A stretch of DNA of 64,000 bases from Gemmatimonadota bacterium (lineage in GTDB: Bacteria; JAAXHH01): positions 456,936 to 520,935 of the forward strand of contig VXTP01000043.1 in NCBI GenBank assembly GCA_009837395.1, in the 5' to 3' direction. Below, in pieces: positions 939 through 57,263 of this stretch. Every line of letters begins with the position of its first letter. Position 1 is the stretch's first letter. A program made the position numbers and the translations under genes. Under the pieces are notes generated by a model. The model saw only the letters and a program-made list of their open reading frames with translations, did not search any database and was not told where the DNA came from.

Positions 939-942
939 AGCG

Positions 943-12176: not shown

Positions 12177-12178
12177 GG

Positions 12179-41027: not shown

Positions 41028-41126
41028 TACAAAACGAGATTCATGATAGGGCTTCGACTGATATGAACAGGCGGGCATCGAGGGTCAAATCACCCGAATC
41101 ACCATCATCAAAAGGAGTTCCTTATC

Positions 41127-42842
41127 ATGATACGAAACCACCATCTCGCCATCACCGTGCTATGCCTCGGTTTCGCGGGGAAGGCGGCGGGCGCGGGCAT
41201 CGTCATTTCAGAGGTACTGGCCGATCCCCATTCGGAATCCAAAGGAGAGTTCGTCGAACTCTACAACGCGGGGGAAGAACCGGTGGATCTCGAAGGCTGG
41301 CCACTCGGCGATTCACGGGATGTGAACGACACGATTACGGACTTCACCGGTCCCCATGACTTCGGCCTGGCGGGTACGGTGCTGGCACCGGGCGCATACG
41401 CGCTTGTCGTCGATCCGGACTACGAAGGCGAATACAACGCGCGAGTTGCCGCGGCGGGCGATCCTGCCCGTCTACTGATGCTGACCATCAAGGGAGACCG
41501 GACACTGGGCAATGGGCTGGGGAACAGCGGAGACCTGGTCTTCATCAAAAGGGACGAGGTTACGATCGACCAGTTCGCATGGACCGAATCGGCGGGAGGG
41601 AACGGCGTTTCGTGGGAACGGCCGCGACTCGACCTGCCCGTGGACGAGTCCAACCGTTTGCCGTCCACACATCCGGACGGATCGACTCCGGGGTTCCGAA
41701 ACAGCACGGCGAACGACCTATCTCCCACGCCCGGGCCGGAGGATCCAACAATGCCCGAGGATCCCGAGCAGCCGGTAGAACCCTCAGAGCCGGAAGAGCC
41801 AGCGACACCCGAGGAACCCGAGCAGCCCGCCGAACCTGACACACCCACCGATCCCGAGGAACCCGCGGAGCCGGATGAGCCAGCGACACCCGAGGTACCG
41901 GAAGCACCCACCGAACCTGACACGCCCACCGATACCAAGGAACCCGCCGATCCCGAGGAACCCGAGGAACCCGAGGAACCGGCAGAGCCAGCGACGCCCG
42001 AGGAACCCATGGCGCCTGTAGACACCGGGAGATCGATGGAAAACGTAGTCATCAATGAGATCATGTTCAACCCCGGCCCCAACCGGACCGAATGGATTGA
42101 ACTGTACAATCGGGGTAGTGGTGCGGTCGATCTCACCGGCAGCGCGCTGCGGCTGGATCACTTGGAACGGGTGCGCCTCATTTCCTCGGGCGGCCTGTCT
42201 ATCGAAGGCCAGGGATATGTCGTAATTGCCCATGATGTCGCCCTGTTCCGGGAAACGCATCCCGGCTTCGGCGGTACCGTGGTGGAAGCGATAGGCGGCT
42301 GGGAAAGGCTACGGAACAGCGGTGCGAGGATATGGCTTCTGGATGCAGTGGGAAAACCCGTCCATGGCGCAGAATTCGACGAGGCCTCGAATCCCGAACC
42401 GGGTCGTTCCGTGGAACTGGTGAACCCGGACTTCGATCCACCGGTCTGGGGACCATCCGCCGACACGGGCGGCGGTACTCCGGGCCGGCAGAACTCACTC
42501 TATGTTTCCCGTATACCGGACGGCGTCTCCGTGCATTTCAGCAACAATCCGTTCTCCCCGGATGGCGATAACTTCGAAGACGTCTGCCTGGTGACGATCG
42601 ACCTGCCCGCACCCCACGGTATACTTCACGCCATGGTGTTCGATATCCAGGGCCGTTTCCTTAGAACGCTCATTGATCAGACGACCGTAGCCAGCCGGCA
42701 TGTCTTTACATGGGACGGAACGGATCAGCACGGACGCGGGCTGCCTGCCGGTCCGTACATCCTATACGTGGAACAGATGCTGCCCACACTCGACAGGCTG
42801 ACGGCTTCCAAGCATCTGGTCGTGATCGCCTCTTCGCCGTGA
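41127..42842 (+). CDS. Secreted protein with two lamin-tail domains, a Pro/Glu-rich repeat linker and a FlgD-Ig-like C-terminal domain
   Basis: 571 aa with a signal peptide (LAITVLCLGFAGKAAGAG). Lamin-tail motifs ISEVLADPHS…EFVELYN and INEIMFNPGPNRTEWIELYNRG. There are about 90 aa of PEDPEQPVEPSEPEEPATPEEPEQPAEP-type repeats. C-terminus NNPFSPDGDNFED…VFDIQGRFLRTL…WDGTDQHGRGLPAGPYILYV. Confidence 0.7.
   Translation: MIRNHHLAITVLCLGFAGKAAGAGIVISEVLADPHSESKGEFVELYNAGEEPVDLEGWPLGDSRDVNDTITDFTGPHDFGLAGTVLAPGAYALVVDPDYEGEYNARVAAAGDPARLLMLTIKGDRTLGNGLGNSGDLVFIKRDEVTIDQFAWTESAGGNGVSWERPRLDLPVDESNRLPSTHPDGSTPGFRNSTANDLSPTPGPEDPTMPEDPEQPVEPSEPEEPATPEEPEQPAEPDTPTDPEEPAEPDEPATPEVPEAPTEPDTPTDTKEPADPEEPEEPEEPAEPATPEEPMAPVDTGRSMENVVINEIMFNPGPNRTEWIELYNRGSGAVDLTGSALRLDHLERVRLISSGGLSIEGQGYVVIAHDVALFRETHPGFGGTVVEAIGGWERLRNSGARIWLLDAVGKPVHGAEFDEASNPEPGRSVELVNPDFDPPVWGPSADTGGGTPGRQNSLYVSRIPDGVSVHFSNNPFSPDGDNFEDVCLVTIDLPAPHGILHAMVFDIQGRFLRTLIDQTTVASRHVFTWDGTDQHGRGLPAGPYILYVEQMLPTLDRLTASKHLVVIASSP
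41740..42010 (+). repeat. Degenerate in-frame repeats encoding the Pro/Glu-rich (PEEP/PEQP/PTEP) linker of the lamin-tail-domain protein
   Basis: Repeated gaacccgaggaaccc / gagccagcgacacccgag units. The translation is more than 50% Pro+Glu over about 90 aa. Confidence 0.7.
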
Positions 42843-42980
42843 CGGCCGGATTTCGCCGTGAACGGCCGGATATTGTACTTGACACGGTGCTTTGGTTTCC
42901 CTTGATTTACGGTGGCTTCACGCAGCATTGCTCCAGGCCGCCCGGAGCATGAATCGGGTCGCGCGTACAGAGACGGATAC

Positions 42981-45190: not shown

Positions 45191-45907
45191 CTATCCGTCG
45201 AAAACGCCTTCGATCCGGGCGATCCAGCCCGTCATCGCGTCGCAGTACAGCAGGTCGTCTCCGCAACGCGCCAGGCCGTGCGGTTCCGGATGTTCCGGAC
45301 CGATATGGATCTCGTCGAGCACGTTGCCGGTATCGACGTCCATCTTCGCGATGACGCGGTCCATCTTGAATACCATCCACAGGGCATCGTCGCCGGTCCT
45401 CACGATGCCGTGGCCGGCGTCGTAGGGCAGCGGAATGACGCGCTTCACCGACCAGTCCGGGATTCGGACCTGCGTGAGCGTCTTCTCCTTAAGCGTGCTC
45501 AGCCAGATCGTGCCTGTATCCACGAAATCGTAGTCCAGGCCATGGGTGCCGCCGGCAGCGGGAAGGGGCCGGCGGAGCAGAGTAGCGCCGGTCCGCGGAT
45601 CGACCTTGAGGATCTCGCCCGTCCCGGGCGGCGCGTCGGTCTCCCTCGAAAATCGCCACCGTTCGCCCGGACCGTTGGCGGCCAGCCACAGCCCCCCTTC
45701 GCCGAATGACATCCCACTCGTGTTGGAGGATTCCGTCGGCAACTCGCGCAGTATCCTGCTGGTTCCGTACTCGTGGGGAGCTTCCAGGGCGAGGAGCGCG
45801 ATGCGATCGGTGAATTGATCGACGACCCACAGGCCTTCGTCGGTGACCTGCAGACCGTTTGGCGCACTGTACGGCGCCCGCATGTACCGGGTGATCCGTG
45901 GGTTCAT
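45191..45907 (-). CDS. Beta-propeller protein (NHL/SGL/Vgb-like)
   Basis: 238 aa with repeated blade-like segments (LWVVDQ…, LWLAANG…, IWLST…, LWMVFK…). Its start overlaps the PhyH-4 stop by 4 nt. Confidence 0.45.
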   Translation of the reverse strand: MNPRITRYMRAPYSAPNGLQVTDEGLWVVDQFTDRIALLALEAPHEYGTSRILRELPTESSNTSGMSFGEGGLWLAANGPGERWRFSRETDAPPGTGEILKVDPRTGATLLRRPLPAAGGTHGLDYDFVDTGTIWLSTLKEKTLTQVRIPDWSVKRVIPLPYDAGHGIVRTGDDALWMVFKMDRVIAKMDVDTGNVLDEIHIGPEHPEPHGLARCGDDLLYCDAMTGWIARIEGVFDG

Positions 45908-46878
45908 GCCTCTTTCCTGTCCTTGAGACGGGTCCAGCCCCTGCCCGGGTTATAGGGCTTCGCCTCGTGGTAACGGTCCCGGAGTTCCCTGAAGGCTTCC
46001 GGCGTCGTGACCTCCCGCTCGGGATGATTCGAATCCCGGATCACGAAGTCGGCCTCGCTCGGATAGCAGGCCATGGTGACCGGATCCCGTTCCGGCGTGT
46101 AGGTCTCCGGGTCCTCCTCCGAGTTGTTCGGCGCGTCCATGGACTGGTACCTCAGGTCGATACTCCAGCGAACGATCCCGGTATGGTTCACGAAGGAGGC
46201 GTGGGGGGTCAGATTGGTCATGAACAGGACGTCGCCCCGTTTCATTTCCAGGGGAATGGGCTGGTTCTCCGGCAATTCGTCCCCGGGGATCTCCAGGTAG
46301 CCGCCGTGCCCCCCCGTGTAATGCCGGAACACGCCGCCCTTGTGGACCCCGGGAATCACGTGCAGACAACCGTTTTCCACGGTCGTGTCGACCAGCGGGA
46401 TCCAGCAGGTCACGATCAGGTGCCGGTCGCAGTGGGGCAGGAAGTAGCCTGAGTCCTGGTGCCAGGGCACTTCCGTCCGCGTATGCCCCGGAAGCTTCGG
46501 ACGGATGCGATAAGCGGAAGCGCCCACGATGTCCGGTCCGATCAGGTCCGAAACACAGTCTACCAGGTCCGCATTCCGCAACAAATCCAGCATCGACTCG
46601 CCGTTGAACTGCCCTCCACCCCGTCCCATGATCATCGCCAGGACGGCCTCGCCGGCTTCTTCGGACTCTTTGTAAATATGCGCCAACCTGGTTTCGAATC
46701 CTTCTCCCGCATAAGGGCTGGGCAGTTTTCCCTCGTCGTGCAGCCGGCGCGCGCCTTCGTCCACGATGCCGCTCAGGGCCCGGATCAAAGGATGCAGCGC
46801 GGCTTTGGACAGCAGCCCGGTTTTGACCAGGTAACCCTGATTTTCGAATTGCGTGGTTTCCGCCTGAGATAAACCCAT
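45904..46878 (-). CDS. PhyH-family Fe(II)/2-oxoglutarate dioxygenase (paralogue 4)
   Basis: 324 aa. WHQDSGYF HxD motif. Distal His in MTNLTPHASF. Translationally coupled to the downstream beta-propeller gene. Confidence 0.75.
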   Translation of the reverse strand: MGLSQAETTQFENQGYLVKTGLLSKAALHPLIRALSGIVDEGARRLHDEGKLPSPYAGEGFETRLAHIYKESEEAGEAVLAMIMGRGGGQFNGESMLDLLRNADLVDCVSDLIGPDIVGASAYRIRPKLPGHTRTEVPWHQDSGYFLPHCDRHLIVTCWIPLVDTTVENGCLHVIPGVHKGGVFRHYTGGHGGYLEIPGDELPENQPIPLEMKRGDVLFMTNLTPHASFVNHTGIVRWSIDLRYQSMDAPNNSEEDPETYTPERDPVTMACYPSEADFVIRDSNHPEREVTTPEAFRELRDRYHEAKPYNPGRGWTRLKDRKEA

Positions 46879-46940: not shown

Positions 46941-48701
46941 TCAGATGCGCATCATGTCCGATACATCCAGTTCGGTCTTCGGCTGGTGGGGTTTCAGGAA
47001 ACGCATGATCTCTTCCGACGTGGACAGGTCCAGCGCCTCCCGGGTAATGGTCTTGAGCTCCTGGTAATCTGCCGAGCGGATCAGGCTCTTGATCTCGGGA
47101 ATGTCGATGGGGCTCATGCTGAGCTCGTCAACGCCGAGTCCGAGCAGTATGCAGGCCGCAAGGGGATGGGCGGCCATGGCGCCGCACACGCCCACCCAGA
47201 TATCGTTGTCGTGCGCGGCGTCGATCACCGACGCGACCAGGCGGAGCACGGCCGGGTGGCACGGATTGTACAGGGAGGCGATGCTCGGATTGCCCCGGTC
47301 GGCCGCCACGGTGTACTGGATCAGGTCGTTCGTGCCGATGCTGAAGAAGTCCACCTCCTTCGCCAGGTCGTGGGCGGTCAGTGCGGCCGAAGGGATTTCG
47401 ACCATGATTCCGACGGGCATCGACTGGTTGACGGGCACCCCATCCTCCAGCAGTTCATTCCGCGCCTCTTCGAAAAGCGCCTTCGCCCTCCTGAGCTCCT
47501 GCAATCCCGATATCATGGGGAACATGAGACTCACGTTGCCCTCGGCACCGGCCCTCAGGATGGCTCGCAACTGCACCTTGAACATTTCCGGCCGGTCGAG
47601 ACAGAGCCGGATACCTCGCTGGCCCAGGGCGGGATTGGCTTCGTCCGGCATCTCTTTCGGCATCTTGTCCGCCCCGAGGTCCAGCGTCCTAATGATCACG
47701 TGGTTCGGCGCCATGCGCCGCGCGATGCGCTGGTACGTCCGGGTCTGATCTTCTTCGGACGGCAATTCGTTGCCTACCAGATAGAGGAATTCGGTACGGT
47801 ACAGGCCGATGCCGTCCGCGCCGTGGTTCAGGACATCCTCCAGTTCAGCCGGCAGTTCGATATTGGCCGAAAGCTCGATGCGCCTTCCGTCCCGCGTCTC
47901 CGCTGGCAGGTCGTGAAGTTCCTGCAGCTCATGCTCCAGCACCGATAGCTGGGACTTCGTTTCCCTGTACCGGCCGATCGTATCGGCATCCGGATCGAGA
48001 TGGACCATCCCGGTGTTGCCGTCGATGATGATCATCATGCCGTCCGAAATAGTCTGGGTGGCGATGTTGGTCCCGACTACCGCCGGCACGGCAAGACCGC
48101 GGGCGACGATCGCCGTATGCGACGTCTGACCACCGGCGTCGGTGATGAAGCCGCAGACCGCAGACCGGTCTATTTCCGCGGTGTCCGAAGGGGACAGGCT
48201 GTGCGCTACGAGCACGATCTCACCGTCCTTGGCCTCGATCCCGGTATGCGCGCTGCCGGTGAGCTTCGCCAACACCCGGTATTGCACGTCTTCGAAATCG
48301 GCGGTCCGTTCACGGAAGTATGGATTCTCTATCGAGGAGTAACTGGCGATCCATCCTCTCATGACCTCGTCGAAGATATACTCGGCGTTGGTCCGTTCAC
48401 GCCGGATACGCACGACGGTAACATCCACCACTTCCGGGTCTTCGAGTACGGCCTGGTGCGCGCGGAAAATCTTCAGTATGTCCTGGTCGAAATCAACCGC
48501 GATGCGGCGCTGCAACCGGGTCAGGTCGTCCAACGCTTCGTCGACGGCGGTCCGGAATCGAAGAATCTCCGCCTCCACGCCGTCGGCGGGAATCGGACGC
48601 TGGTGTATGGAGGCAAACCGGCGATTATAGACCAGGGCGCGTCCGATAGCGATGCCCGGCGATGCCGGTATGCCTTTAAGTACGCGGCGCTCGTCGCTCA
48701 T
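46941..48701 (-). CDS. ptsI: Phosphoenolpyruvate-protein phosphotransferase (PTS enzyme I)
   Basis: 586 aa. Active-site His region GGQTSHTAIVARGLAVPAVVG and PEP-utilising C-terminal barrel (FFSIGTNDLIQY). Confidence 0.9.
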   Translation of the reverse strand: MSDERRVLKGIPASPGIAIGRALVYNRRFASIHQRPIPADGVEAEILRFRTAVDEALDDLTRLQRRIAVDFDQDILKIFRAHQAVLEDPEVVDVTVVRIRRERTNAEYIFDEVMRGWIASYSSIENPYFRERTADFEDVQYRVLAKLTGSAHTGIEAKDGEIVLVAHSLSPSDTAEIDRSAVCGFITDAGGQTSHTAIVARGLAVPAVVGTNIATQTISDGMMIIIDGNTGMVHLDPDADTIGRYRETKSQLSVLEHELQELHDLPAETRDGRRIELSANIELPAELEDVLNHGADGIGLYRTEFLYLVGNELPSEEDQTRTYQRIARRMAPNHVIIRTLDLGADKMPKEMPDEANPALGQRGIRLCLDRPEMFKVQLRAILRAGAEGNVSLMFPMISGLQELRRAKALFEEARNELLEDGVPVNQSMPVGIMVEIPSAALTAHDLAKEVDFFSIGTNDLIQYTVAADRGNPSIASLYNPCHPAVLRLVASVIDAAHDNDIWVGVCGAMAAHPLAACILLGLGVDELSMSPIDIPEIKSLIRSADYQELKTITREALDLSTSEEIMRFLKPHQPKTELDVSDMMRI

Positions 48702-48702
48702 G

Positions 48703-48966
48703 TTACGGCTCCTGATCCTTGTCGAACATGTCGGTAATGGCCTTCAGGGCATCCGTTTCGTCCGGTCCGTCGATCTCCACCGTAATGGAACTGCCGTGCT
48801 CCGCTGCCAGCATCATGACCCCCAGGATGCTCTTGCCATTCACCGGAATGTCGTCCTTGACCAGCGTGACTTCCGACTTGAATCTGGACGCCGTGCGAAC
48901 CAGTTGCTCGGCGGGTCGCATGTGCAACCCCTTCCTGTTCTTTACGGAAACGGTTTTCCTTATCAA
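48703..48966 (-). CDS. ptsH: Phosphocarrier protein HPr
   Basis: 87 aa. His15 context NRKGLHMRPAEQ and Ser46 context GKSILGVMML, the HprK target. Confidence 0.9.
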   Translation of the reverse strand: MIRKTVSVKNRKGLHMRPAEQLVRTASRFKSEVTLVKDDIPVNGKSILGVMMLAAEHGSSITVEIDGPDETDALKAITDMFDKDQEP

Positions 48967-49004
48967 ATCGCTGCCCGATCCATTCAGACCTGCGTGACAT
49001 GCTT

Positions 49005-49988
49005 CTACTCGTAGTCTTCCCTGCGATACCGGACCTTTTCGCCTTCCTTCATGACCTCCAGCACCCGCTGATTCAATATGGATGCCGGGTTGATTCCGAC
49101 GACTTTCAGGAGATGCCGGAGTGCAACGACCTCGGAAATGACCGTCAGATTCTTGCCCGGGTTGATGGGAATCCGGACATAGGGCAGTTCCGCGTCGAGC
49201 AACGTCGTGGTCTTCTCATCGAGGGCCGTACGTTCGTAGACCTCGTCGCTGTTCCAGTCCTCCAGGTTTACGACGACTTCTATCCGCTTGCGCACGCGGA
49301 TGCTGCGTATGCCGAACATGCTGGTGACGTCGATAATGCCCACGCCGCGTATTTCCATGAAGTGCTGCGTGATCGTGTTGCTCGTCCCCATGATGACGCC
49401 GCGCCGCATCCGGTAAGCCGTAACCACGTCGTCCGCCACCAGCCGGTGACCCCGTTCCACCAGGTCCAGGGCCGTTTCGCTTTTGCCGATTCCGCTGCGT
49501 CCGGTGAACAGGAGACCCACGCCGTACACGTCGACCAGGGCGCCGTGTATGGTCGTCATCGGCGCGAAGTAGGGTTCCAGGTACTCGATCAGGGACTGCG
49601 CGAAGGCATCCGTCGTCAGTGAAGTACCCAGAACGGCGATATCGAACCGCTCGGCGGTCTCGGTCAATTCCCGGGGCGGATCCATACCCTTCGTGATCAC
49701 CATGCAGGGAAAGCCCAGGTCGAACAGCCGGTCCAGCGACGCACGCCGCTGGTCCGCGGGCAGACTGTTCAGGTAGGATAATTCGGTCTCCCCCAGGATC
49801 TGGATCCGGTTGCTGGAAAACCGCTCGACAAATCCCGCCAGCGCGAGTCCCGGCCGGTTCGTCTCCGCGTTTGTTATCTTCCTGGACAGTCCCGTTTCAC
49901 CCGTCAGCGGGGACAGTTTCAGGTCGACCTGCTCGACCAGGTTCTTGATCAGCAGGACGCGCGATTTCAGGGGCGATGTCGTGGCCAT
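49005..49988 (-). CDS. hprK: HPr kinase/phosphorylase
   Basis: 327 aa. P-loop GRSGIGKSETALDL. HprK/P family pattern. Confidence 0.85.
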   Translation of the reverse strand: MATTSPLKSRVLLIKNLVEQVDLKLSPLTGETGLSRKITNAETNRPGLALAGFVERFSSNRIQILGETELSYLNSLPADQRRASLDRLFDLGFPCMVITKGMDPPRELTETAERFDIAVLGTSLTTDAFAQSLIEYLEPYFAPMTTIHGALVDVYGVGLLFTGRSGIGKSETALDLVERGHRLVADDVVTAYRMRRGVIMGTSNTITQHFMEIRGVGIIDVTSMFGIRSIRVRKRIEVVVNLEDWNSDEVYERTALDEKTTTLLDAELPYVRIPINPGKNLTVISEVVALRHLLKVVGINPASILNQRVLEVMKEGEKVRYRREDYE

Positions 49989-49998
49989 CGTCCGCTAC

Positions 49999-50301
49999 CT
50001 AGTGACGCCGGTTTCTGTGATCGTGCAGCTTGCCGTTGTGCTTCTTCAACTGGGTTTCCATCTTGTTGACCGCCTGATCGAGGGCCGTGTAGGCTTCGGC
50101 GTTCTCCTCTTTGCTGGTCAGGACGTGCCCGCCGACGTGCACGTTCAGTTCAACCATGTACCGGTATTTTTCCTGCGAGACGATAAGGTCCGCACTCAGG
50201 ATGTTGTCGCTGTATCTGTTTAAACGGTCGATCTCTCTGTCCGCATGCTCCTTGTAAGCGTCTGCCAGTTCGCAGTGTCGGGCCGTCATGGATTTCTGCA
50301 C
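49999..50301 (-). CDS. hpf: Ribosome hibernation-promoting factor (short HPF/RaiA)
   Basis: 100 aa. Sigma-54 modulation protein pattern (…YRYMVELNVHVGGHVL…). Sits immediately downstream of rpoN, as in many Gram-negatives. Confidence 0.8.
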   Translation of the reverse strand: MQKSMTARHCELADAYKEHADREIDRLNRYSDNILSADLIVSQEKYRYMVELNVHVGGHVLTSKEENAEAYTALDQAVNKMETQLKKHNGKLHDHRNRRH

Positions 50302-50333
50302 GTTCGCCTCCCTTCGCCGTATGGCCTGTCGGG

Positions 50334-51776
50334 TCAGATCCTTCTGCGCATCCGCGCAATGGGTATTCCCAGGTTCTCGCGGTACTTCGCCACCGTCCGC
50401 CGCTTGATCTGCACGCCTTCCTTCGTGCGGAGAATCTCCTCAATCGCCTGGTCGCTCAGCGGCGCACGCGCGTCTTCTTCCTCGATGATCCGCGCGATGC
50501 GGTCTTTGACCGTCTTGGTCGCCAACTGGCCGGCCGCGGCTTCCCCGGTCTCCTCGTCCGTCTTTTTCTTCAATCGCCCGTCGAAGAAGAACCGCAGCGC
50601 GAAAATGCCCCGTGGCGTCTGAACGTACTTGCCTTGCGTGGCCCGGCTGACGGTCGTTACATGCAGGCCCACCTCGTCGGCCACTTCCTGGAGAATCATC
50701 GGCTTGAGACTGGAAAGGCCCGCATCCAGGAACTCGCGCTGTGCCCTGACGATGCAGTTTGTCACCTTCAACAGGGTTGACCGCCGCTGTTCGATGGAGT
50801 TGACGAAGTGGTTCGCTTCGGTCAGCTTGCGCCTCACGTAACGCCGGTCTTCATCTGAAGACTGCGCGTTCCGGTTCAGGATGGCCTGGTAGGCATGGCT
50901 GACACGCACCCTGGGCAGGTTGCGATCATTGAGGTAGACGAGGTACTCTCCGTCTACTTTCTCGACGATCAGGTCGGGATGTATGGCGATAACGGATGAA
51001 TCGCTGACGGCCAGCCCCGGATGAGGATTGAGTCCGGCGATCACGTTCAGGGCGTCGCCGATTTCCTGCTCGGACGCCCTGATCTTCTTTCGAATCGAAG
51101 CGATGCGCCGCAACTTGACGTCGCGCCAGTGTTCCGATACCAGCCGGTATGCAAGGGAATCGCTCAAGCTCAACGCTTCCAGTTGAAGCATGAGACACTC
51201 TCGCAGGTCCCGCGCGCCGACACCCGTAGGCTCGAGGGTCTGCACGACCTTCAGCACCCGTTCCGCCTCGTCGAACGGCACGCTCGATTCCAATGCCAGG
51301 TCCAGCAGTGGGACGTCGAGGAGACCGCTGTCGTTCAGGTTTCCGATCAGGTACTCGCCGATTTCGCGGTCCTGGGCGGAGAGGTCGAGAAGCCGCAATT
51401 GCTCGATCAGGTAGTCGGTGAGCGTCGTATCCGACTTTCCCTCCCGTTCCAGGATGTGCTGATCTTCCCTTTTTTCCGTCTCTTCACGGGCATCCATCTG
51501 GTTGTGCATGCCGTCCTGAATGTAGGCATCCCAATCGATTCGGTCCTGATCGGACGCGGGGTCCTCCGCCTGGGGTTCCTCCGCCTGGGGTTCCTCCGCC
51601 TGGGGTTCCTCCGCCGTCTCGCCCGCCTCTTCCTCGAGTTCCAGCAGCGGATTCTCCTCGATTTTCTCCTTGATCTCCTGCTCGAGTTCCAGCGTGGTGA
51701 ACTGCAGCAGCTTGAGCGAGTACATCAACTGGGGAGAAAACTGCTGCCTGGTCTGGGGCTGAAGTTGAAATTCCAT
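50334..51776 (-). CDS. rpoN: RNA polymerase sigma-54 factor
   Basis: 480 aa. Gln/Leu-rich region I (MEFQLQPQTRQQFSPQLMYSLKLLQ). C-terminal RpoN box ARRTVAKYRE. An acidic (EEPQA)n repeat is encoded by a 15-bp tandem repeat at about 51562-51615. Confidence 0.9.
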   Translation of the reverse strand: MEFQLQPQTRQQFSPQLMYSLKLLQFTTLELEQEIKEKIEENPLLELEEEAGETAEEPQAEEPQAEEPQAEDPASDQDRIDWDAYIQDGMHNQMDAREETEKREDQHILEREGKSDTTLTDYLIEQLRLLDLSAQDREIGEYLIGNLNDSGLLDVPLLDLALESSVPFDEAERVLKVVQTLEPTGVGARDLRECLMLQLEALSLSDSLAYRLVSEHWRDVKLRRIASIRKKIRASEQEIGDALNVIAGLNPHPGLAVSDSSVIAIHPDLIVEKVDGEYLVYLNDRNLPRVRVSHAYQAILNRNAQSSDEDRRYVRRKLTEANHFVNSIEQRRSTLLKVTNCIVRAQREFLDAGLSSLKPMILQEVADEVGLHVTTVSRATQGKYVQTPRGIFALRFFFDGRLKKKTDEETGEAAAGQLATKTVKDRIARIIEEEDARAPLSDQAIEEILRTKEGVQIKRRTVAKYRENLGIPIARMRRRI

Positions 51777-51791
51777 GGGCGTGCCTTCCGG

Positions 51792-52535
51792 TTACTCCAG
51801 GCGGAACCGCTCGCCGAGGTAGATACGGCGGGCTTCGGGGTCCTCGGCCAGATCCTTGGCCGTTCCCGATATGTAAATCCGGCCGTCGGCCATGATATAG
51901 GACCGGTCCGTGATCTGCAACGTTTCCCGTACCATGTGATCCGTGACCAGGATGCCCAGTTTTCGTTCCTTCAGGCGTCCGATGACTTCCTGTATGTCCT
52001 CCACGGCAATGGGATCGATGCCGGCGAAGGGCTCGTCGAGCAGAATGAACTTCGGTTCGGTCACCAGGGCGCGGCTGATCTCGGTTCTTCGCCGCTCGCC
52101 GCCCGACAGGGTATAGGCCTTGTGCTTGGCCAGATGGGCGATGCCGAAATCCTCCAGCAGATCCTCCATCTTCTGGCGCCGGGCCTTGCGGGTCATGGGC
52201 AGGGTCTGGAGAATGGACATCAGGTTCTGTTCCACCGTCATCCTGCGGAAGATCGACGGCTCCTGGGCCAGATAGCCTATCCCCACGCGAGCCCTGCGGT
52301 ACATCGGCCACCGCGTGATGTTCCGGCTTTCCCCGGTCTCCCGGTCATCGATGAGCACCCGGCCCGACCCCGGTTTGATCATGCCGACGATCATATAGAA
52401 CGAGGTGGTCTTCCCCGCCCCGTTGGGCCCGAGCAGTCCGACCACCTCGCCCTGGTCTACACGCAGGCTCACATCGTCGACGACGCGATGATTCTGGTAG
52501 GACTTCACCAGATTCTCAGCTCGCAGGCACTGCAC
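51792..52535 (-). CDS. lptB: LPS export ABC transporter ATP-binding protein
   Basis: 247 aa. Walker [10 protein letters not shown], signature LSGGERRR. Position between an lptA-like gene and rpoN. Confidence 0.85.
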
Positions 52536-52547
52536 GGATCCTCCGAT

Positions 52548-53927
52548 TCATCGGTTGCCGTCTTCGTCTTCCGGGTTGAGGTAGGATCCGTCCACGCCGC
52601 CATCCGCGTTCACCTTGACCGGTTCGCCTTCATTCAATTCGATCACGATTTCCTTCGCCCGGACCACGTTGTGGCCGGTCGGACCACTTTCGAGCGCAGA
52701 CGGATTGTAGGTACTCACCGCGTTCCCTTGCGCGGTAATCATCCTCACCGATTCGCCCTCGAAGTCCACGATCATGCTGCGGCCTTCAATGGTGCTGCGG
52801 CCAGCCTGGCCCGATTGGCCCTCCTGGTCCGCCTGATCGGTCTGGTCCGTCTGATCGGTCTGGTCCGTCTGGTCCGTCTGATCGGTCTGGTCCGCCTGAT
52901 CGTTCTGGTCCGCCTGATCGGTCTGGTCCGTCTGGCCGGTCTGGTTGTCTGCCTGGCCGGCTGTCCGGTCCGCCAAATCATCCGCCAGATTCGTCCCCTC
53001 TTGCTCTTCCGCGGTATAGGAACCCCGGGCATTGCCCGTAACCAGAGCGCGTGCGACCTCGCCGTCCTCCATTTCGAGGATGATCTCATCCCCGGTGATC
53101 TCGCTGTGAACGCTCCGAATCACCGGGTTGCCGAGGAGATCGATCTGCTGGCCTTCGCTGTCGAAGCGCAACGTATCGCAAATCCCCTCCAGCGTTCCTT
53201 TGACGACGCTGACCGAATCGAACACGTCGGCAGTCCGGTCTTCGAAGGCGTAGGCCATGCCTTTCCCGGTCGCCACGATTTCGCCCGCATTGCCTTCCAG
53301 TCGCTTGACCAGCCGGGGATCGCCGCTGAAACGAGCGCTATCCGTTGCCTTGTAATACTCCGCGTGATCGCAGTAAATAGTCACGCCTTCGCCCTCGTCC
53401 ACCACGATGACGGATTCCACTGCCAGCGCTTTCAGCAGGGAGTTGGTTTCGGTGAAGAAGTACTCAAGACGAAAGCCCTCGATGTTGATTTTGCTTTCGT
53501 TTTGCCCCCAGGTCATATTCGGCTTGCCCGTCGCCACGGCGCGGTGGGGATCCTGGGTGAAAACCATGCGATTGCCCGTCAGCACCACGCCGTCCAACGC
53601 GTCATCGAGCCTCACCTGCCCCGCTCCGATAGCCCGCTGGTCCTCCTCGTAGTACACCGCGGCGTCGGCGGTGAGCGTGGTGGTCCCGCGGATCATGCGT
53701 ACGTTTCCGTAAAGATGTACGATACCTTTCAAGCGATCATAGTTCACCCGGTCACTCGTCAGCACGGTATTTCCGTGCTTGAGCCGCACCGACTCGGCCA
53801 GGTCGAAAACCTCGTCGACACCAGTAGCCCGGAAGCTGCCCGCTTCCTCGATTTGCACCGGTTCGCGAGGCTCCTGGCCCTCCGCCTGAGCAGCGGAAAG
53901 CACGATGAAACAGCAGACCGAAATCAC
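52548..53927 (-). CDS. Elongated OstA-like (LptA-family) periplasmic protein with tandem OstA domains and a (DQT)n acidic repeat
   Basis: The ORF extends to 54137. The signal-peptide-like segment VISVCCFIVLSAAQA follows a GTG at 53927; an alternative ATG lies at 54050. Two beta-jellyroll OstA-like regions are present. The repeat QTDQTDQADQNDQADQTDQTDQTDQTDQTDQTDQADQ is encoded by tandem repeats at about 52824-52960. Start uncertain. Confidence 0.55.
   Translation of the reverse strand: MISVCCFIVLSAAQAEGQEPREPVQIEEAGSFRATGVDEVFDLAESVRLKHGNTVLTSDRVNYDRLKGIVHLYGNVRMIRGTTTLTADAAVYYEEDQRAIGAGQVRLDDALDGVVLTGNRMVFTQDPHRAVATGKPNMTWGQNESKINIEGFRLEYFFTETNSLLKALAVESVIVVDEGEGVTIYCDHAEYYKATDSARFSGDPRLVKRLEGNAGEIVATGKGMAYAFEDRTADVFDSVSVVKGTLEGICDTLRFDSEGQQIDLLGNPVIRSVHSEITGDEIILEMEDGEVARALVTGNARGSYTAEEQEGTNLADDLADRTAGQADNQTGQTDQTDQADQNDQADQTDQTDQTDQTDQTDQTDQADQEGQSGQAGRSTIEGRSMIVDFEGESVRMITAQGNAVSTYNPSALESGPTGHNVVRAKEIVIELNEGEPVKVNADGGVDGSYLNPEDEDGNR
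52824..52960 (-). repeat. In-frame tandem repeats (6/18-bp units) encoding (DQT/DQA)n in the LptA-like protein
   Basis: ctggtccgtctgatcggt and ctggtccgcctgatcg units are repeated about 8 times. Confidence 0.8.
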
Positions 53928-54033
53928 CCACCTGACGGACCCTGTTCCATGACATAATATACCGAAATTACCGTTGAACGTCAAGGATGCGTGCCCCCCG
54001 TGACGGCGGTCGAAGTACTGCTCTGCGAAGGGG

Positions 54034-54645
54034 TCATTGCGGTTGTGCATCCGGAAGAAAACGGCCTTTGACGTTGCGCCGGATGATATAACGGCGCATG
54101 CCCGGATCGGCTTCAAACCCATCGCCCGCAATGACATCCGTGTCCCCGGTCAATCGAACGGCGGCATCCGTTACGATAAGATTCGCGGCGTTCAACCAGG
54201 TCAGGGAATCGGTTTCCAGGGTGCCCCGCTCCGTGCTGTGGACCGTTACACCGCCCCGGACGCGCAGGTTGTGGGTCAGCCCGTCGATTTCGCCCCACTC
54301 CGCTTCGAGCGTAGAGGCCAGGCTGCCGTCATCTTCAAAGAACTCGACGTGGATGCCCTCATCAATGACGGTGACGTTGGTTTCCGAGAAATAAAGGCGG
54401 TGCCCTGCCCGGATCGTGGCTTCCTGCCGGCCGTCTCGGCTCAGGTATATGGTCGTGTTCCACGCTTCCTGGTCCGGCAGCGCGTCCTGCGCGCCTTCTT
54501 CAGGAACCGGCTGATCGACGGGCTGACACGCTGCCGTGCACAGGGCGATGGCCATGGCCAGGTGCCACGGCCGGAAGCGGGCGAGCCTTTTGGATGCATG
54601 GTGATTCAGGCGGGTCGGAACATGCGGATTGCGGGTAGTCGGCAT
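54034..54645 (-). CDS. LptC-like LPS export protein (membrane-anchored)
   Basis: An N-terminal hydrophobic anchor (LAMAIALCTAAC) is followed by an LptC-like beta-jellyroll region. The position upstream of lptA/lptB supports the call. The start may be the internal Met at 54555. Confidence 0.55.
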   Translation of the reverse strand: MPTTRNPHVPTRLNHHASKRLARFRPWHLAMAIALCTAACQPVDQPVPEEGAQDALPDQEAWNTTIYLSRDGRQEATIRAGHRLYFSETNVTVIDEGIHVEFFEDDGSLASTLEAEWGEIDGLTHNLRVRGGVTVHSTERGTLETDSLTWLNAANLIVTDAAVRLTGDTDVIAGDGFEADPGMRRYIIRRNVKGRFLPDAQPQ

Positions 54646-54755
54646 GACTGAATATACCTGGTTTCATGCATACCTGCAAGATCAAGTTGGACCGTGTACG
54701 CTGGGTCAAGCCTACCTGGACACCTTGTCAGTTCGCCCTGGCAGTCGCGCCGGGC

Positions 54756-55625
54756 CTACTTTGACACCCTCCATCGGTCATGCATCCATACCCACTGCTC
54801 CGGCGCCTTCCTGATGAACCGTTCCAGTTCCCCGGTATACGCCCTCGTCGTTGTTTCCACGTCTTCCGGCGTCCGTCCTGCGGGCCGGATCGGCGGCCGG
54901 ACCGTCACGAGATGCGTGTCGTCCGGAAGACGGTGAATGGCCATGGGCACGATAGGCGCGCCCGTCCGGTCCGCCAGCACCGCGGGTCCGGTCGGGGTCC
55001 GGGCCGGGTGGCCGAAGAAAGGGACCGCGATGCCGGCGCCCCGGGTATCCTGGTCCACCAGGAGCCCCACCACGTGCCCCTTTCTCAGCGCGCGTAGTAT
55101 GGCGGTGGTAGCCCGGTCGCGGGGTACCACTTCCAGTCCGCTCCGCACCCGGTTCTCCCGCAGGAGCGCGTCCAGCCTGTCGTCGTAAAGCGGGGCCGCC
55201 ACCACGGTTACCGCGTATCCCTTGAGCGCCAGGAACGCGCCCATCAGTTCGAAGTTGCCCAGGTGGGCACTTACCGCGATCACGCCCTTGCCCTCGCCAT
55301 AGGCCGATTGCAGGTGGGACAGGCCATCGGCCCCGACCAGGCCGTCCACGTTCTCCGCCGTTACCCGGGGCAGCCGGGCGACATCCACGACATTCCGTCC
55401 CAGCTCCCGGAAGACGGTCCTGCCCAGACGCCGGATCTGCCCGCGCGACTGCGTTTCGCCGTAAGCCAGCGTCAGATTGGAAAGTGCAAGGCGCCGGGGA
55501 CCGCGGGCAGACAGGTACGCCAGTCCACCGATCCACCCGCCGAAGGACAACGCCCGCGGCCTCGGTAACGCGTTCATCAGGCCGATGAGCGCGCACACTG
55601 CCCGATAGATCGCGGCATTTCGCAT
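54756..55625 (-). CDS. LpxL/HtrB-family Kdo2-lipid-IVA late acyltransferase
   Basis: Start at MRNAAIYRAVCALIGL, which gives an N-terminal membrane anchor. HX4D-like acyltransferase motif region (AVSAHLGNFE). Located directly downstream of kdsA. Confidence 0.7.
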   Translation of the reverse strand: MRNAAIYRAVCALIGLMNALPRPRALSFGGWIGGLAYLSARGPRRLALSNLTLAYGETQSRGQIRRLGRTVFRELGRNVVDVARLPRVTAENVDGLVGADGLSHLQSAYGEGKGVIAVSAHLGNFELMGAFLALKGYAVTVVAAPLYDDRLDALLRENRVRSGLEVVPRDRATTAILRALRKGHVVGLLVDQDTRGAGIAVPFFGHPARTPTGPAVLADRTGAPIVPMAIHRLPDDTHLVTVRPPIRPAGRTPEDVETTTRAYTGELERFIRKAPEQWVWMHDRWRVSK

Positions 55626-55665
55626 GCGCTTGATCAGAGAGGCCAAGAGTGCACTCGCATGGAGG

Positions 55666-56496
55666 TTAACCCGCCGCGTGGGGCCGCACGACTTCGTCGA
55701 TCGCCTTGAGGCTTTCCAGCAGAGGCTCCAGGCGGTCGAGCGGCAACATGCTCGCGGCGTCGCACAGCGCCTCGGAAACCCGGGGATGGGTTTCGATGAA
55801 TACCGCTTCGCATCCCGCGGCCACCGCGGCACGGGCGAGGGGTTCGATGAATTCGGGGGTGCCGCCGCTCGCGTCGCTGCTCGGACGGCCGTACAGTCTC
55901 ACCACGTGAGTGGCATCGAACACCACGGGGTATCCCGTCCGGCGCATGATGGCCAGCGACCGCATGTCGGCGACCAGGTCGTGATAACCGAAAGAGACGC
56001 CGCGTTCGGTCAGGAGGATGTTCCGGTTGCCTGCGCTTTCGATCTTGGCGACGACTGACACCACGTCTTCCGGCGCAAGGAACTGTCCCTTCTTCACGTT
56101 GACGGGCTTTCCGGTCCGGGCCAGGGCGAGGGTGAGCTCCGTCTGCATGGACAGGTGCGCGGGAAGCTGCAGAACGTCCAGGACCTCAGCGGCCTCGTCT
56201 ACCTCCGGCAACGCGTGAACGTCCGAAAGTACGGGCACGCCGAGCGCTCGGACTTTCCGGAGCACACGCAACCCTTCGCGCAGCCCCGGTCCCGCGTAGT
56301 AGGCGGCCGAAGAGCGGTTCGCCTTCGCATAGGATGATTTGAACACGAGCGGGATGCCCAGGTGCGTGGTAGCCGTAATCAGGCGCTCCGCGGTCTCCAT
56401 GACCACGGCCTCGCTCTCGATCACGCAAGGCCCCGCAATCAGCGCCAGCGGCCGTCCGCCTCCTATGGCCACGTCTCCCACGGCGACTTCTTTCAC
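55666..56496 (-). CDS. kdsA: 3-deoxy-8-phosphooctulonate synthase
   Basis: 276 aa. DAHP/KDO8P synthase barrel (LIAGPCVIES…, FKSSYAKANRSS). Overlaps kdsB by 4 nt. Confidence 0.9.
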   Translation of the reverse strand: MKEVAVGDVAIGGGRPLALIAGPCVIESEAVVMETAERLITATTHLGIPLVFKSSYAKANRSSAAYYAGPGLREGLRVLRKVRALGVPVLSDVHALPEVDEAAEVLDVLQLPAHLSMQTELTLALARTGKPVNVKKGQFLAPEDVVSVVAKIESAGNRNILLTERGVSFGYHDLVADMRSLAIMRRTGYPVVFDATHVVRLYGRPSSDASGGTPEFIEPLARAAVAAGCEAVFIETHPRVSEALCDAASMLPLDRLEPLLESLKAIDEVVRPHAAG

Positions 56497-57263
56497 GACG
56501 CATCTTCCTCCGCGGCCAGCCTGCGTTCCGCCTTTACCAGGTCTTCGGGCACATCGACGCCAAGGGGGGCGTAGTCGGTTTGCCGCACGGTGATACGGTA
56601 TCCGTTTTCCAGGGCCCGCAACTGTTCCAGCCTTTCGATCCGCTCCAGGGGCGTCGGTTCAAGCCCGGCGAAGGTGAGCAGGAACGACCGCCGGTACCCG
56701 TAGAGACCCACCGTATTGTAGAACCGGTGTTCTCGCAGGAATGCCCGGTCCGGCCGCTCCCCCGGCCAGGGCAACGGTGAGCGGGAAAAGTACAGCGCCA
56801 GACCCCGTCCGTCGATGACCACCTTGCCCATGTGGGGATTGAGCAGGTCCTCCGTCGTGGTGATCCGGTGGGCGAGGGTCGTCATGGGCAGGTCCGGATC
56901 GTCGACCAGGGGCTGCACGACCGTTTCGATGGCTTCGGGCGTGATCAGCGGCTCGTCTCCCTGGATGTTGACGACCACGTCCGTATCCATCTCCTGAACG
57001 GCCGCGGCCAGCCGGTCCGTACCGCTCGGGTGATCCGGCGCGGTCATGATGGGTTCGCCGCCGAACCCGCGGACGGCGTCCGCTATGCGCCGGTCGTCGG
57101 TCACGACATACAGATCGGTGAGACACCGCGCCCGGCGGGACCGCTCATAGGTGTGCTGTATCATCGGTTTGCCCCGCAAGGGCGCGAGCGCCTTGCCGGG
57201 GAAACGCGTCGAAGCGTAGCGGGCCGGTATGAGACCCGTGATTCTCGGGGTATCGGATCCCAT
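56493..57263 (-). CDS. kdsB: 3-deoxy-manno-octulosonate cytidylyltransferase
   Basis: 256 aa. Motifs GLIPARYASTRFPGKAL and NIQGDEPLI. Confidence 0.9.
   Translation of the reverse strand: MGSDTPRITGLIPARYASTRFPGKALAPLRGKPMIQHTYERSRRARCLTDLYVVTDDRRIADAVRGFGGEPIMTAPDHPSGTDRLAAAVQEMDTDVVVNIQGDEPLITPEAIETVVQPLVDDPDLPMTTLAHRITTTEDLLNPHMGKVVIDGRGLALYFSRSPLPWPGERPDRAFLREHRFYNTVGLYGYRRSFLLTFAGLEPTPLERIERLEQLRALENGYRITVRQTDYAPLGVDVPEDLVKAERRLAAEEDAS

What the first reader, a model, noticed from the sequence alone, without database searches (positions are those of the whole stretch)
41127..42842. Secreted double lamin-tail-domain protein with a Pro/Glu-rich linker of about 90 aa and a FlgD-Ig-like C-terminal sorting-type domain
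A signal peptide is followed by two lamin-tail domains (ISEVLADPHS…EFVELYN and INEIMFNPGP…EWIELYNRG). These are separated by a highly acidic low-complexity PE-rich linker built from degenerate DNA repeats. The protein ends in an NPFSPDGDNFED…WDGTDQHGRGLPAGPYILYV domain of the FlgD-Ig/CHU_C type, which is often a cell-surface anchoring or type-IX-like sorting signal in FCB-group and candidate-phylum bacteria. Bacterial lamin-tail proteins are poorly understood, with proposed surface or DNA/polymer binding. The rigid, extended PE linker suggests a stalk that presents the second lamin-tail domain away from the cell. The gene is transcribed divergently from gcvT and has its own strong Shine-Dalgarno (AAAGGAG).
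Basis: partly seen in the sequence, partly recalled or inferred. Interest (0 to 1): 0.55.

Follow-up and report, generated by a model that had tools for sequence, protein, structure and literature searches.

The report
Acidic two-LTD surface protein, T9SS-like tail
This gene encodes an exported, very acidic, non-enzymatic protein with two lamin-tail-type binding domains, a floppy Pro/Glu-rich spacer and a C-terminal domain resembling type IX secretion sorting tags; it is one member of a large uncharacterised family, so it is a sound but fairly ordinary finding.

Summary
ORF 41127-42842 (+) encodes 571 aa: a signal-peptide-like N-terminus, two LTDs (PF00932, 98.7 bits), an acidic Pro/Glu linker of about 100 aa built on an 81-nt repeat, and a C-terminal FlgD_ig domain (30.9 bits, cutoff 27).

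The C-terminal domain (CTD) is always terminal in homologues. Its best structural match is PorU, with the mirolase and NucA T9SS sorting domains also matching. Across 25 family CTDs, 24 give weak-to-significant CHU_C and PorU-model hits. However, this copy is below cutoff for every T9SS model. The same module also occurs as internal tandem repeats in giant proteins. T9SS machinery could not be tested.

New points:
- The gene belongs to an FCB-superphylum-wide family (at least 1,466 relatives), with no genome contributing two of the 80 loci kept, that normally has a folded CARDB-like domain between the LTDs.
- Only this close clade replaced that domain with a hypervariable PE linker (52-172 aa).
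- If the protein is CTD-anchored, the linker projects LTD1, not LTD2.
- Both LTDs are strongly acidic, which argues against simple DNA binding.

Verdict: new member of a known kind, moderate-to-low interest.

The parts
41111..41117 (+). Shine-Dalgarno-like AAAGGAG, 9 nt upstream of the ATG
   Evidence: Read directly from the sequence. The sigma-70 promoter scan found nothing above the shuffled expectation in the 127-bp gap to gcvT.
41127..42842 (+). Complete ORF of 571 aa plus stop: SP-LTD1-PE linker-LTD2-CTD
   Evidence: ORF list; Pfam; 99%-identical P0001 on a 284-kb metagenome scaffold.
41127..41195 (+). Predicted Sec signal peptide (aa 1-23; n-region MIRNHH, h-region LAITVLCLGFAG, c-region KAAGA, likely cleavage AGA|G)
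   Evidence: Hydropathy profile and sequence. Modelled as a helix (2-16) followed by a low-confidence segment. Homologues have equivalent hydrophobic N-termini. Cys13 is not in a lipobox context and is not conserved across the wider family. Inferred; no signal-peptide predictor was available.
41196..41711 (+). Lamin tail domain 1 (aa ~24-195), net charge -18
   Evidence: Pfam LTD stretch 20-152; model pLDDT 81-92; invariant E29, E41, E44, N47, S162, P188, N192; charge.
41715..42029 (+). Acidic Pro/Glu-rich low-complexity linker (aa ~197-301), predicted disordered
   Evidence: 30% P, 26% E, net charge -37; pLDDT <50 for 198-301. All 6 substitutions relative to the 99%-identical P0001 fall in residues 223-250. 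Length is 52-172 aa in the close clade. It occupies the position of a CARDB-like domain in orthologues.
41778..41982 (+). 81-nt (27-aa) in-frame tandem repeat, 2.5 copies, inside the linker
   Evidence: TRF score 268, 83% matches. Units EPSEPEEPATPEEPEQPAEPDTPTDPE and EPAEPDEPATPEVPEAPTEPDTPTDTK share 84% DNA identity.
42039..42512 (+). Lamin tail domain 2 (aa ~305-462), net charge -8
   Evidence: Second Pfam LTD stretch; model pLDDT 82-92; invariant E311, E322, E325, W441, G449, P452, G453, N456. The LTD1 and LTD2 HMMs cross-detect each other at about 1e-17 to 1e-20.
42519..42839 (+). C-terminal Ig-like beta-sandwich (aa 465-571): FlgD_ig by HMM, T9SS-CTD-like by family-level HMM hits and fold; tail ...SKHLVVIASSP

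Best explanation
The gene encodes a non-enzymatic, strongly acidic (pI ~4.3) cell-envelope protein of a diderm, LPS-containing FCB-group bacterium. Closest public records are labelled Gemmatimonadota or Latescibacterota.

Proposed path:
1. Sec export through an N-terminal signal peptide. This is inferred from sequence features.
2. Recognition of the C-terminal Ig-like domain by a type IX-like outer-membrane translocon, followed by retention on the cell surface through that domain. Retention is more probably the non-covalent, retained-CTD mode of type B/PorU/PorZ-like CTDs than cleavage and LPS ligation. This is inferred by homology and fold, not shown.
3. On the surface, LTD2 sits next to the anchor. 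The disordered, polyanionic Pro/Glu spacer of about 100 aa acts as a flexible, self-repelling tether that holds LTD1 away from the membrane.
4. The two LTD beta-sandwiches act as ligand-binding modules whose ligand is unknown. Given their negative charge, the ligand is more likely a neutral or cationic polymer, or a cation-bridged one, than naked DNA.

The protein is the local orthologue of an FCB-wide family with the architecture SP-LTD-CARDB-LTD-CTD. In this clade the folded CARDB-like spacer was replaced in situ by a repeat-generated PE linker that expands and contracts rapidly.
For: - Domain calls and boundaries.
- CTD position: it ends within 0-25 residues of the C-terminus in 102 of 104 homologues, with a family-specific conserved tail K-x-x-V-V-[VL]-A-x-[KR]-L.
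- CTD sequence neighbourhood: CHU_C 24/25 (best 2.5e-9), PorU model 24/25, TIGR04131 17/25, PorZ 13/25, TIGR04183 13/25. P0076 passes the CHU_C cutoff, 33.9 against 27. Nearly all Ignavibacteria members have a precomputed CHU_C hit.
- Conserved features matching the published functional CTD motifs (beta3-beta4 loop Gly, Lys in the last strand; PMC11285876).
- The domain type is used as a single terminal tag on 24 unrelated ORFs in FCB loci.
- The organism is a diderm with LPS: lptB, lptA-like, lptC, lipid A acyltransferase, kdsA and kdsB are in the window.
- Orthology and domain replacement: gcvT-LTD-prs-dctP synteny is shared with P0046, which has a folded middle domain.
- Linker disorder, repeats and variability.
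- No catalytic domain was detected.
- The literature allows T9SS in other FCB phyla, including Gemmatimonadetes (PMC11285876), and notes that type B CTDs are sometimes labelled FlgD_ig (PMC11611037).
Against: - The window's own CTD is below the curated cutoff for CHU_C and gives no hit to TIGR04183, TIGR04131 or PF18962 at E<=0.1.
- The same module is a structural tandem repeat in giant proteins, and only 25 of the top 150 representatives end in a terminal copy.
- No T9SS component and no PorP/SprF-like gene lies next to the gene or was found among the window genes scanned (genes at about 13.9-28 and 29.4-31 kb were not scanned). No neighbour is conserved across 83 loci.
- A 2016 survey found T9SS only in Bacteroidetes (PMC4793230).
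- The signal peptide was not scored by a dedicated tool.
- No ligand is known for any bacterial LTD (PMC6085458).
- There is no expression or localisation evidence.
Confidence: 0.55

Rival explanations
1. The protein is exported by Sec, but the C-terminal FlgD_ig domain is only a structural Ig-like module and not a sorting signal. The protein stays in the periplasm, or is released by another route such as outer-membrane vesicles, lysis or T2SS. There it acts as a soluble binding or scaffold protein.
For: - The window copy is below cutoff for all curated T9SS CTD models.
- The module occurs as up to 34 internal tandem copies in giant proteins.
- Generic Ig and macroglobulin domains match the fold nearly as well as T9SS CTDs.
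- No T9SS gene was seen among the window genes scanned.
- T9SS was reported as restricted to Bacteroidetes in PMC4793230.
Against: - The domain is at or within 25 residues of the C-terminus in 102 of 104 homologues, with a conserved terminal strand.
- Family-level hits to CHU_C, TIGR04131, and the PorU and PorZ models.
- In neighbouring FCB loci, unrelated proteins use a single terminal copy with the canonical type A tail.
- PorU is the top structural match.
Confidence: 0.25
2. It is an extracellular-DNA-binding protein, for example a DNA-capture or biofilm-matrix factor, that uses the LTDs as DNA-binding modules, by analogy with LTD-containing secreted nucleases.
For: - LTDs are fused to secreted nucleases (ExeM, PMC6085458; DNases, PMC4486849; a 1,049-aa nuclease/LTD protein, PMC8289736).
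- LTD is fused to a ComEA-like HhH domain in P0105.
- There is a weak hit to the N-terminus of the ExeM model.
- Deleting the LTD from ExeM slows DNA degradation in vitro (PMC6085458).
Against: - LTD1 and LTD2 carry net charges of -18 and -8, and the whole family has pI 4.1-5.0.
- No nuclease, OB-fold or HhH domain is present in the protein.
- No nuclease or nucleoside-uptake gene lies nearby.
- The ExeM LTD is dispensable for extracellular DNA degradation in vivo, and its role is called unelucidated (PMC6085458).
Confidence: 0.1
3. It is a host-interaction 'eukaryote-like' protein specific to a symbiotic lifestyle. In this reading the LTDs mimic a eukaryotic domain and the PE linker is an adaptation to the host matrix.
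For: - The PE-linker variant is confined to one close clade.
- The linker evolves fastest.
- The scaffold name of the closest contig and the locus tags of relatives suggest, from my own recollection only, sponge metagenomes. This was not verified here.
Against: - The family is FCB-wide in MAGs from many lineages and is far more similar to bacterial LTDs than to lamins.
- LTDs are widespread in free-living bacteria (PMC6085458).
- No paper in the library links sponge symbionts and lamin tail domains.
Confidence: 0.07

Closest known systems
T9SS cargo with type B (CHU_C / TIGR04131) C-terminal domains, e.g. SprB of Flavobacterium johnsoniae, CHU_3220 of Cytophaga hutchinsonii, PG1035 of Porphyromonas gingivalis
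   Same: N-terminal signal peptide plus a ~100-aa Ig-like domain at the extreme C-terminus with an F-[ST]-P-[DN]-G-D-type motif. Family members hit CHU_C and TIGR04131. The protein is a non-enzymatic, adhesin-like passenger. Type B CTDs are sometimes labelled FlgD_ig (PMC11611037).
   Different: This copy is below the curated cutoffs. No PorP/SprF-like partner gene is adjacent here or conserved across 83 loci. The passenger (two LTDs) and the family-specific tail K-x-x-V-V-[VL]-A-x-[KR]-L are distinct. The host is outside classical Bacteroidota, and its T9SS is unverified.
Retained CTDs of the T9SS components PorU and PorZ (PDB 6za2, 5m11), and cleaved type A CTDs (mirolase 8qb1, NucA 8glk_D)
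   Different: No sortase or beta-propeller passenger is present. TIGR04183 and PF18962 do not hit this copy. The canonical K-M-[VI]-L-[LI]-K tail seen on other cargo in FCB loci is absent.
Bacterial LTD-containing secreted proteins such as the extracellular nuclease ExeM of Shewanella oneidensis
   Same: A signal peptide is followed directly by an LTD with the I-x-E-[VI]...E-[FW]-[VI]-E-L-x-N motif. There is a weak hit to the ExeM N-terminus. The role of the LTD is unknown in both.
   Different: No nuclease (EEP) or OB-fold domain. Two LTDs instead of one. A T9SS-like tail instead of ExeM's C-terminal hydrophobic region. The LTDs are very acidic.
Eukaryotic lamin tail Ig-like domain (lamin B1, PDB 7dtg)
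   Different: 16% identity. No coiled-coil rod, NLS or CaaX box. The protein is extracytoplasmic. A profile of the family does not retrieve lamins from PDB sequences at E<=0.1.
FlgD flagellar hook-capping protein (Ig-like domain, PDB 3osv, 7eh9)
   Same: It is the only solved sequence relative of the C-terminal domain (E=4e-8 with the family profile). PF13860 is above its cutoff.
Proline/glutamate-rich spacers such as the (Glu-Pro)n segment of TonB (comparison from my own knowledge, not tested here)
   Same: Pro-Glu dipeptide-rich, extended, low-complexity spacer between functional modules of an envelope protein.
   Different: TonB pairs an acidic EP run with a basic KP run and spans the periplasm. 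Here the spacer is purely acidic, repeat-built, hypervariable, and replaces a folded CARDB-like domain.

Membership tests
Lamin tail domain, Pfam PF00932 | HMM score above the gathering cutoff | tested here: met
   98.7 bits against 34.3, two stretches. Family-derived LTD1 and LTD2 HMMs each detect both copies.
Lamin tail domain, Pfam PF00932 | Ig-like beta-sandwich fold of the lamin tail | tested here: met
FlgD_ig, Pfam PF13860 (domain level) | HMM score above the gathering cutoff | tested here: met
   30.9 bits in the full protein and 32.7 bits for the isolated domain, against 27. FlgD chains are the only PDB sequence hits.
FlgD hook-capping protein (functional family) | FlgD N-terminal domain and full-length equivalog score | tested here: not met
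   FlgD NCBIfam equivalogs score 13-22 bits against cutoffs of 230-383, over the Ig part only. Flanking genes are gcvT, prs and dctP.
T9SS type B CTD (CHU_C PF13585 / TIGR04131) | HMM score above the curated cutoff | tested here: not met
   Window copy: CHU_C 13.5 or 17.9 bits against 27; no TIGR04131 hit at E<=0.1. At family level, 24/25 hit CHU_C and 17/25 hit TIGR04131 at E<=0.1. P0076 passes at 33.9 bits, and CHU_C is precomputed for most Ignavibacteria members.
T9SS type B CTD (CHU_C PF13585 / TIGR04131) | Domain at the extreme C-terminus of a protein with an N-terminal signal peptide | tested here: met
   The CTD spans aa 465-571 and ends at the stop codon. It ends within 0-25 residues of the C-terminus in 102 of 104 homologues. 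The N-terminus is signal-peptide-like.
T9SS type B CTD (CHU_C PF13585 / TIGR04131) | Cognate PorP/SprF-like outer-membrane partner, often encoded next to the cargo gene (PMC9143113) | tested here: inconclusive
   None is adjacent: the neighbours are gcvT and prs. No neighbour family is conserved in more than 12 of 83 loci. A partner elsewhere in the genome could not be searched.
T9SS type A CTD (TIGR04183 / PF18962) | HMM score above the curated cutoff | tested here: not met
   The window copy gives no hit at E<=0.1. Only 13/25 (TIGR04183) and 4/25 (PF18962) family CTDs give weak hits.
T9SS type A CTD (TIGR04183 / PF18962) | Canonical terminal strand ending K-[ML]-[VI]-L-[LI]-K | tested here: not met
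   The window tail is SKHLVVIASSP and the family consensus is K-x-x-V-V-[VL]-A-x-[KR]-L. Other cargo in the same FCB loci do show the canonical tail.
T9SS CTD (any type) | Seven-stranded Ig-like beta-sandwich resembling solved CTDs, with a conserved beta3-beta4 loop Gly and a last-strand Lys (PMC11285876) | tested here: met
T9SS CTD (any type) | T9SS core machinery (SprA/Sov, PorV, PorU, GldK/L/M/N) encoded in the same genome | not testable with these tools
   None was found among the window genes scanned (genes at about 13.9-28 and 29.4-31 kb were not scanned). The literature is split: PMC11285876 against PMC4793230.
CARDB, Pfam PF07705 (middle domain of the orthologous family) | Folded CARDB-like domain between the two LTDs | tested here: not met
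   The window protein has a PE-rich disordered segment there. Orthologues have CARDB: P0076 scores 25.1 against 22.7, P0049 20.1 and P0055 17.9, and several hits have it precomputed.

The most novel reading that the evidence does not exclude
The SP-LTD-CARDB-LTD-CTD protein may not be ordinary variable cargo. It could be a conserved, single-copy component of the FCB cell envelope, for example part of a surface attachment or T9SS-associated complex in lineages outside classical Bacteroidota.

Supporting hints:
- Its CTD subtype has a private conserved tail and is closest to the retained CTDs of PorU and PorZ.
- Its architecture and size are conserved across many phyla.
- In some lineages it is coupled (4-bp overlap) to a BatA-like VWA/GATase1-like membrane protein.

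In this reading, the clade represented by the window remodelled the rigid CARDB spacer into a polyanionic, hypervariable tether, possibly as an adaptation to a host-associated niche.
Probability: 0.08. Interest if true: 0.7.

Novelty: new member of a known kind. Interest (0 to 1): 0.3.

Why it matters
Bacterial lamin-tail domains have no established function, and T9SS outside Bacteroidota is poorly documented. This gene is a clean representative of a very large family (at least 1,466 relatives at E<=1e-10; at least 463 loci among species-representative genomes). The family spans Gemmatimonadota/Latescibacterota, Zixibacteria, KSB1, Marinimicrobia, Calditrichota and Ignavibacteriota, and is annotated only as 'lamin tail domain-containing protein'.

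Showing where it localises and what the LTDs bind would give a first function for bacterial LTDs. It would also test whether FlgD_ig/CHU_C-like tails are real sorting signals in these candidate phyla.

The in-situ swap of a folded CARDB spacer for a fast-evolving acidic disordered linker is a neat natural experiment on spacer design in surface proteins. None of this is categorically new: every module is a known type.

Tried and rejected
1. Searched the 64-kb window for other proteins with the same CTD or other LTDs using family HMMs on six-frame translations. None was found, which says little given the window size.
2. Looked for a conserved operon partner. All-against-all clustering of ORFs from 83 loci shows no neighbour in more than 12 loci. 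The BatA-like upstream gene is confined to a few lineages and is absent from the window.
3. Ran a CTD-only search of the 5.8-billion-protein index. Only 2 candidates were collected, so it was uninformative.
4. Ran a CTD profile search of 1.84 billion representatives. The listing was dominated by giant multi-copy proteins, so it could not give a census of single terminal copies, but it exposed the 'structural repeat' caveat.
5. The promoter/terminator scan and an RNA fold of the 3' direct repeat were no better than shuffles.
6. A fold search against AFDB was unavailable.
7. A literature search for T9SS in Gemmatimonadota or Latescibacteria genomics papers, and for sponge symbiont LTD proteins, found nothing specific.
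8. Lipoprotein reading of Cys13: rejected. The residues before it (T-V-L) do not form a lipobox, and the Cys is not conserved across the wider family.
9. The apparent 959-aa relative in L013 is an artefact of my stop-to-stop ORF extension; its linker is 142 aa.
Full report
**Observation.** The ORF at 41127-42842 (+) is real and encodes 571 aa. Pfam finds the lamin tail domain PF00932 twice (E=3.2e-28, 98.7 bits, cutoff 34.3). It also finds FlgD_ig PF13860 at aa 490-550 (30.9 bits, cutoff 27). CHU_C reaches only 13.5 bits against a cutoff of 27. NCBIfam gives no T9SS sorting-domain hit for the full protein; there are only weak FlgD Ig hits and a weak match to the LTD-bearing N-terminus of the ExeM model.

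Residues ~197-297 are 30% Pro and 26% Glu, with net charge -37. This segment is built on an 81-nt in-frame repeat (2.5 copies, 83% matches, 41778-41982). The repeat gives two 27-aa units with 84% DNA identity plus a degenerate third. AAAGGAG lies 9 nt upstream of the ATG. The divergent upstream gene is gcvT. The N-terminus (MIRNHH / LAITVLCLGFAG / KAAGA|G) has the layout of a Sec signal peptide; no predictor was available, so this is inferred.

**Structure.** An AlphaFold model built on a 32-sequence family alignment has mean pLDDT 78.5. It shows confident LTD1 (25-190), LTD2 (305-460) and C-terminal domain (465-567, pLDDT 90-97). Residues 198-301 are below 50, consistent with disorder.

**Family.** The protein is 99% identical to P0001, which lies on a 284-kb metagenome scaffold. 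It has 59-96% identical relatives on 3.5-3.9-Mb MAG chromosomes labelled 'bacterium', 'Gemmatimonadota' or 'Latescibacterota'. More distant full-length relatives (25-43% identity) occur in many groups:
- Latescibacteria
- Zixibacteria
- KSB1
- Marinimicrobia
- Calditrichota
- Ignavibacteriota
- Kryptonia
- MAGs labelled Bacteroidota

At least 463 loci were confirmed among species-representative genomes, and no genome contributed two of the 80 loci kept. A second search with an Ignavibacteria member found at least 1,466 relatives at E<=1e-10. Every name given by a source is generic: 'lamin tail domain-containing protein' or 'hypothetical'. No cultured organism appeared among the best hits.

**The middle segment.** The alignment shows that the distant members have a folded segment of ~94-129 aa between the LTDs. 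This segment is CARDB-like: P0076 scores 25.1 bits against a cutoff of 22.7, P0049 and P0055 are just below, and several hits have CARDB precomputed.

Among the aligned family members, only the close clade has the PE-rich segment in the same place; two more distant multi-LTD relatives (P0115, P0119) also have PE-rich inter-LTD segments. P0046 has a folded middle domain yet shares the gcvT-LTD-prs-dctP synteny with the window. The PE linker therefore replaced the domain in situ within an orthologous gene.

The linker is hypervariable:
- It is 52-172 aa long within the clade.
- L016 has near-perfect long internal duplications.
- All six substitutions between the window protein and its 99%-identical relative lie in linker residues 223-250.

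**Is the C-terminal domain a sorting signal?**

Evidence for:
- It ends within 0-25 residues of the C-terminus in 102 of 104 homologues.
- It has a conserved, family-specific terminal strand, K-x-x-V-V-[VL]-A-x-[KR]-L.
- Of 25 diverse family CTDs, all 25 hit FlgD_ig, 24 CHU_C (best 2.5e-9), 24 the C-terminal region of the PorU model, 17 TIGR04131, 13 TIGR04183 and 13 PorZ.
- P0076 passes the CHU_C cutoff, and most Ignavibacteria members carry a precomputed CHU_C hit.
- Invariant G509 in a D-x-x-G-R loop and the last-strand Lys correspond to the two motifs shown experimentally to matter in P. gingivalis CTDs (PMC11285876).
- In the 1.4 Mb of FCB loci fetched, 24 unrelated ORFs of 161-1,276 aa carry one terminal copy, most with the canonical type A tail K-M-[VI]-L-[LI]-K.
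- Type B CTDs are sometimes labelled FlgD_ig (PMC11611037).

Evidence against:
- The window's own copy is below every curated T9SS cutoff.
- The module is extremely common: 155,189 representatives at E<=0.001. The top hits carry up to 34 internal tandem copies, and only 25 of 150 end with a terminal copy.
- No PorP/SprF-like partner is adjacent, and no neighbour is conserved in more than 12 of 83 loci.
- No T9SS component appears among the window genes scanned (genes at about 13.9-28 and 29.4-31 kb were not scanned).

Whether the genome has T9SS machinery could not be tested. The literature is split: PMC4793230 found T9SS only in Bacteroidetes, while PMC11285876 lists Gemmatimonadetes among FCB phyla that may have it. 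The window does show that the organism is a diderm with LPS (lptB, lptA-like, lptC, lipid A acyltransferase, kdsA, kdsB). A Sec-exported protein therefore needs some route across the outer membrane to reach the surface.

**What the LTDs might do.** No catalytic domain is present. The function of bacterial LTDs is unestablished. Proposals are membrane targeting or DNA binding, and the ExeM LTD is dispensable for extracellular DNA degradation in vivo (PMC6085458, PMC4486849, PMC8289736). Both LTDs are strongly acidic here (-18 and -8) and throughout the family, which has pI 4.1-5.0. Direct electrostatic DNA binding is therefore unlikely. Cation-bridged binding, or binding to neutral or basic polymers, remains possible.

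**Mechanism proposed (confidence 0.55).**
1. Sec export.
2. T9SS-like translocation, then surface retention through the C-terminal domain.
3. LTD2 sits next to the anchor, and the polyanionic disordered linker holds LTD1 away from the cell.
4. Ligand binding by the LTDs.

Steps 1 to 4 are inferred. Only the domain architecture, the fold assignments, the family distribution and the linker evolution are shown. 'Rigid' is unsupported.

**Rivals.**
- A purely structural terminal Ig domain with periplasmic or other localisation (0.25).
- An extracellular-DNA-binding role (0.10).
- A host-interaction 'eukaryote-like' protein (0.07).

**Verdict.** The gene is a new member of a known kind: a secreted LTD protein with a T9SS-like tail, belonging to a very large but uncharacterised family. 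Its clade-specific twist is the replacement of a CARDB spacer by a repeat-driven acidic linker. Interest is about 0.3.

Noticed in passing
L007:5655-7850, L009:5842-8004, L017:109-2295, L019:4431-6611: In Zixibacteria, a KSB1 MAG, a 'Gemmatimonadota'-labelled MAG and one unlabelled contig, the LTD-CARDB-LTD-CTD gene lies directly downstream of a ~720-730-aa membrane protein, with a 4-bp overlap in L009. That protein has weak VWA and GATase1_like (BatA-like) matches, and the copies are homologous to each other (34% id, E~1e-114). The window and most other loci lack it.
   Followed up: partly
window 46941-57263: A run of minus-strand genes: ptsI, ptsH, hprK, hpf, rpoN, lptB, an LptA/OstA-like protein, lptC, a lipid A acyltransferase, kdsA and kdsB. 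This shows a diderm with LPS and a PTS-Ntr-like regulatory cluster next to rpoN.
   Followed up: partly
window 42833-42871: A 20-nt direct repeat (TTCGCCGTGAACGGCCGGAT, 2 copies, 95%) overlaps the stop codon of the LTD gene. The region does not fold better than shuffled sequence, and no terminator was detected.
   Followed up: partly
window 8273-13782: A partner-switching-type signalling cluster on the minus strand: HAMP/TorS-like sensor histidine kinase, periplasmic binding protein, HATPase_c_2 anti-sigma-type kinase, response regulator-SpoIIE phosphatase, and a STAS protein.
   Followed up: no
window 30-3525: An operon of a transglutaminase-like protein, an Alpha-E domain protein and a circularly permuted ATP-grasp protein, a conserved triad of unknown function.
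   Followed up: no
P0121 (4,065 aa) and other representatives P0122-P0270: Giant proteins carry up to 34 tandem internal copies of the same FlgD_ig-like module with F-[ST]-P-[DN]-G-D motifs. The module therefore has a structural-repeat role as well as a terminal-tag role.
   Followed up: partly
P0105, P0060, P0115: Other LTD architectures among the hits: LTD fused to a ComEA-like helix-hairpin-helix domain (P0105); beta-helix/NosD plus four LTDs (P0060); four LTDs with a PE-type linker and a weak FlgD_ig tail (P0115).
   Followed up: no
L020-L081 (24 ORFs, e.g. L051:3433-6003, L076:1074-3716): Unrelated proteins in Ignavibacteria, KSB1 and Calditrichota loci end in a single related domain with the canonical T9SS type A tail K-M-[VI]-L-[LI]-K. 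The LTD family keeps its own tail, K-x-x-V-V-[VL]-A-x-[KR]-L, in the same genomes.
   Followed up: partly
window 45904-46878; also L001:4453-5181 and L001:14778-15752: At least two PhyH (phytanoyl-CoA dioxygenase family) paralogues lie within ~12 kb in the orthologous locus L001, one of them at window 45904-46878. Two further window ORFs (13925-14716 and 14963-15940) may also belong, judged only from their N-terminal sequences and not scanned.
   Followed up: no
window 51021-53957 (+): A 978-aa ORF on the plus strand overlaps rpoN, lptB and the lptA-like gene on the minus strand. It is almost certainly a spurious high-GC antisense ORF (its GC3 is lower than its GC1).
   Followed up: yes
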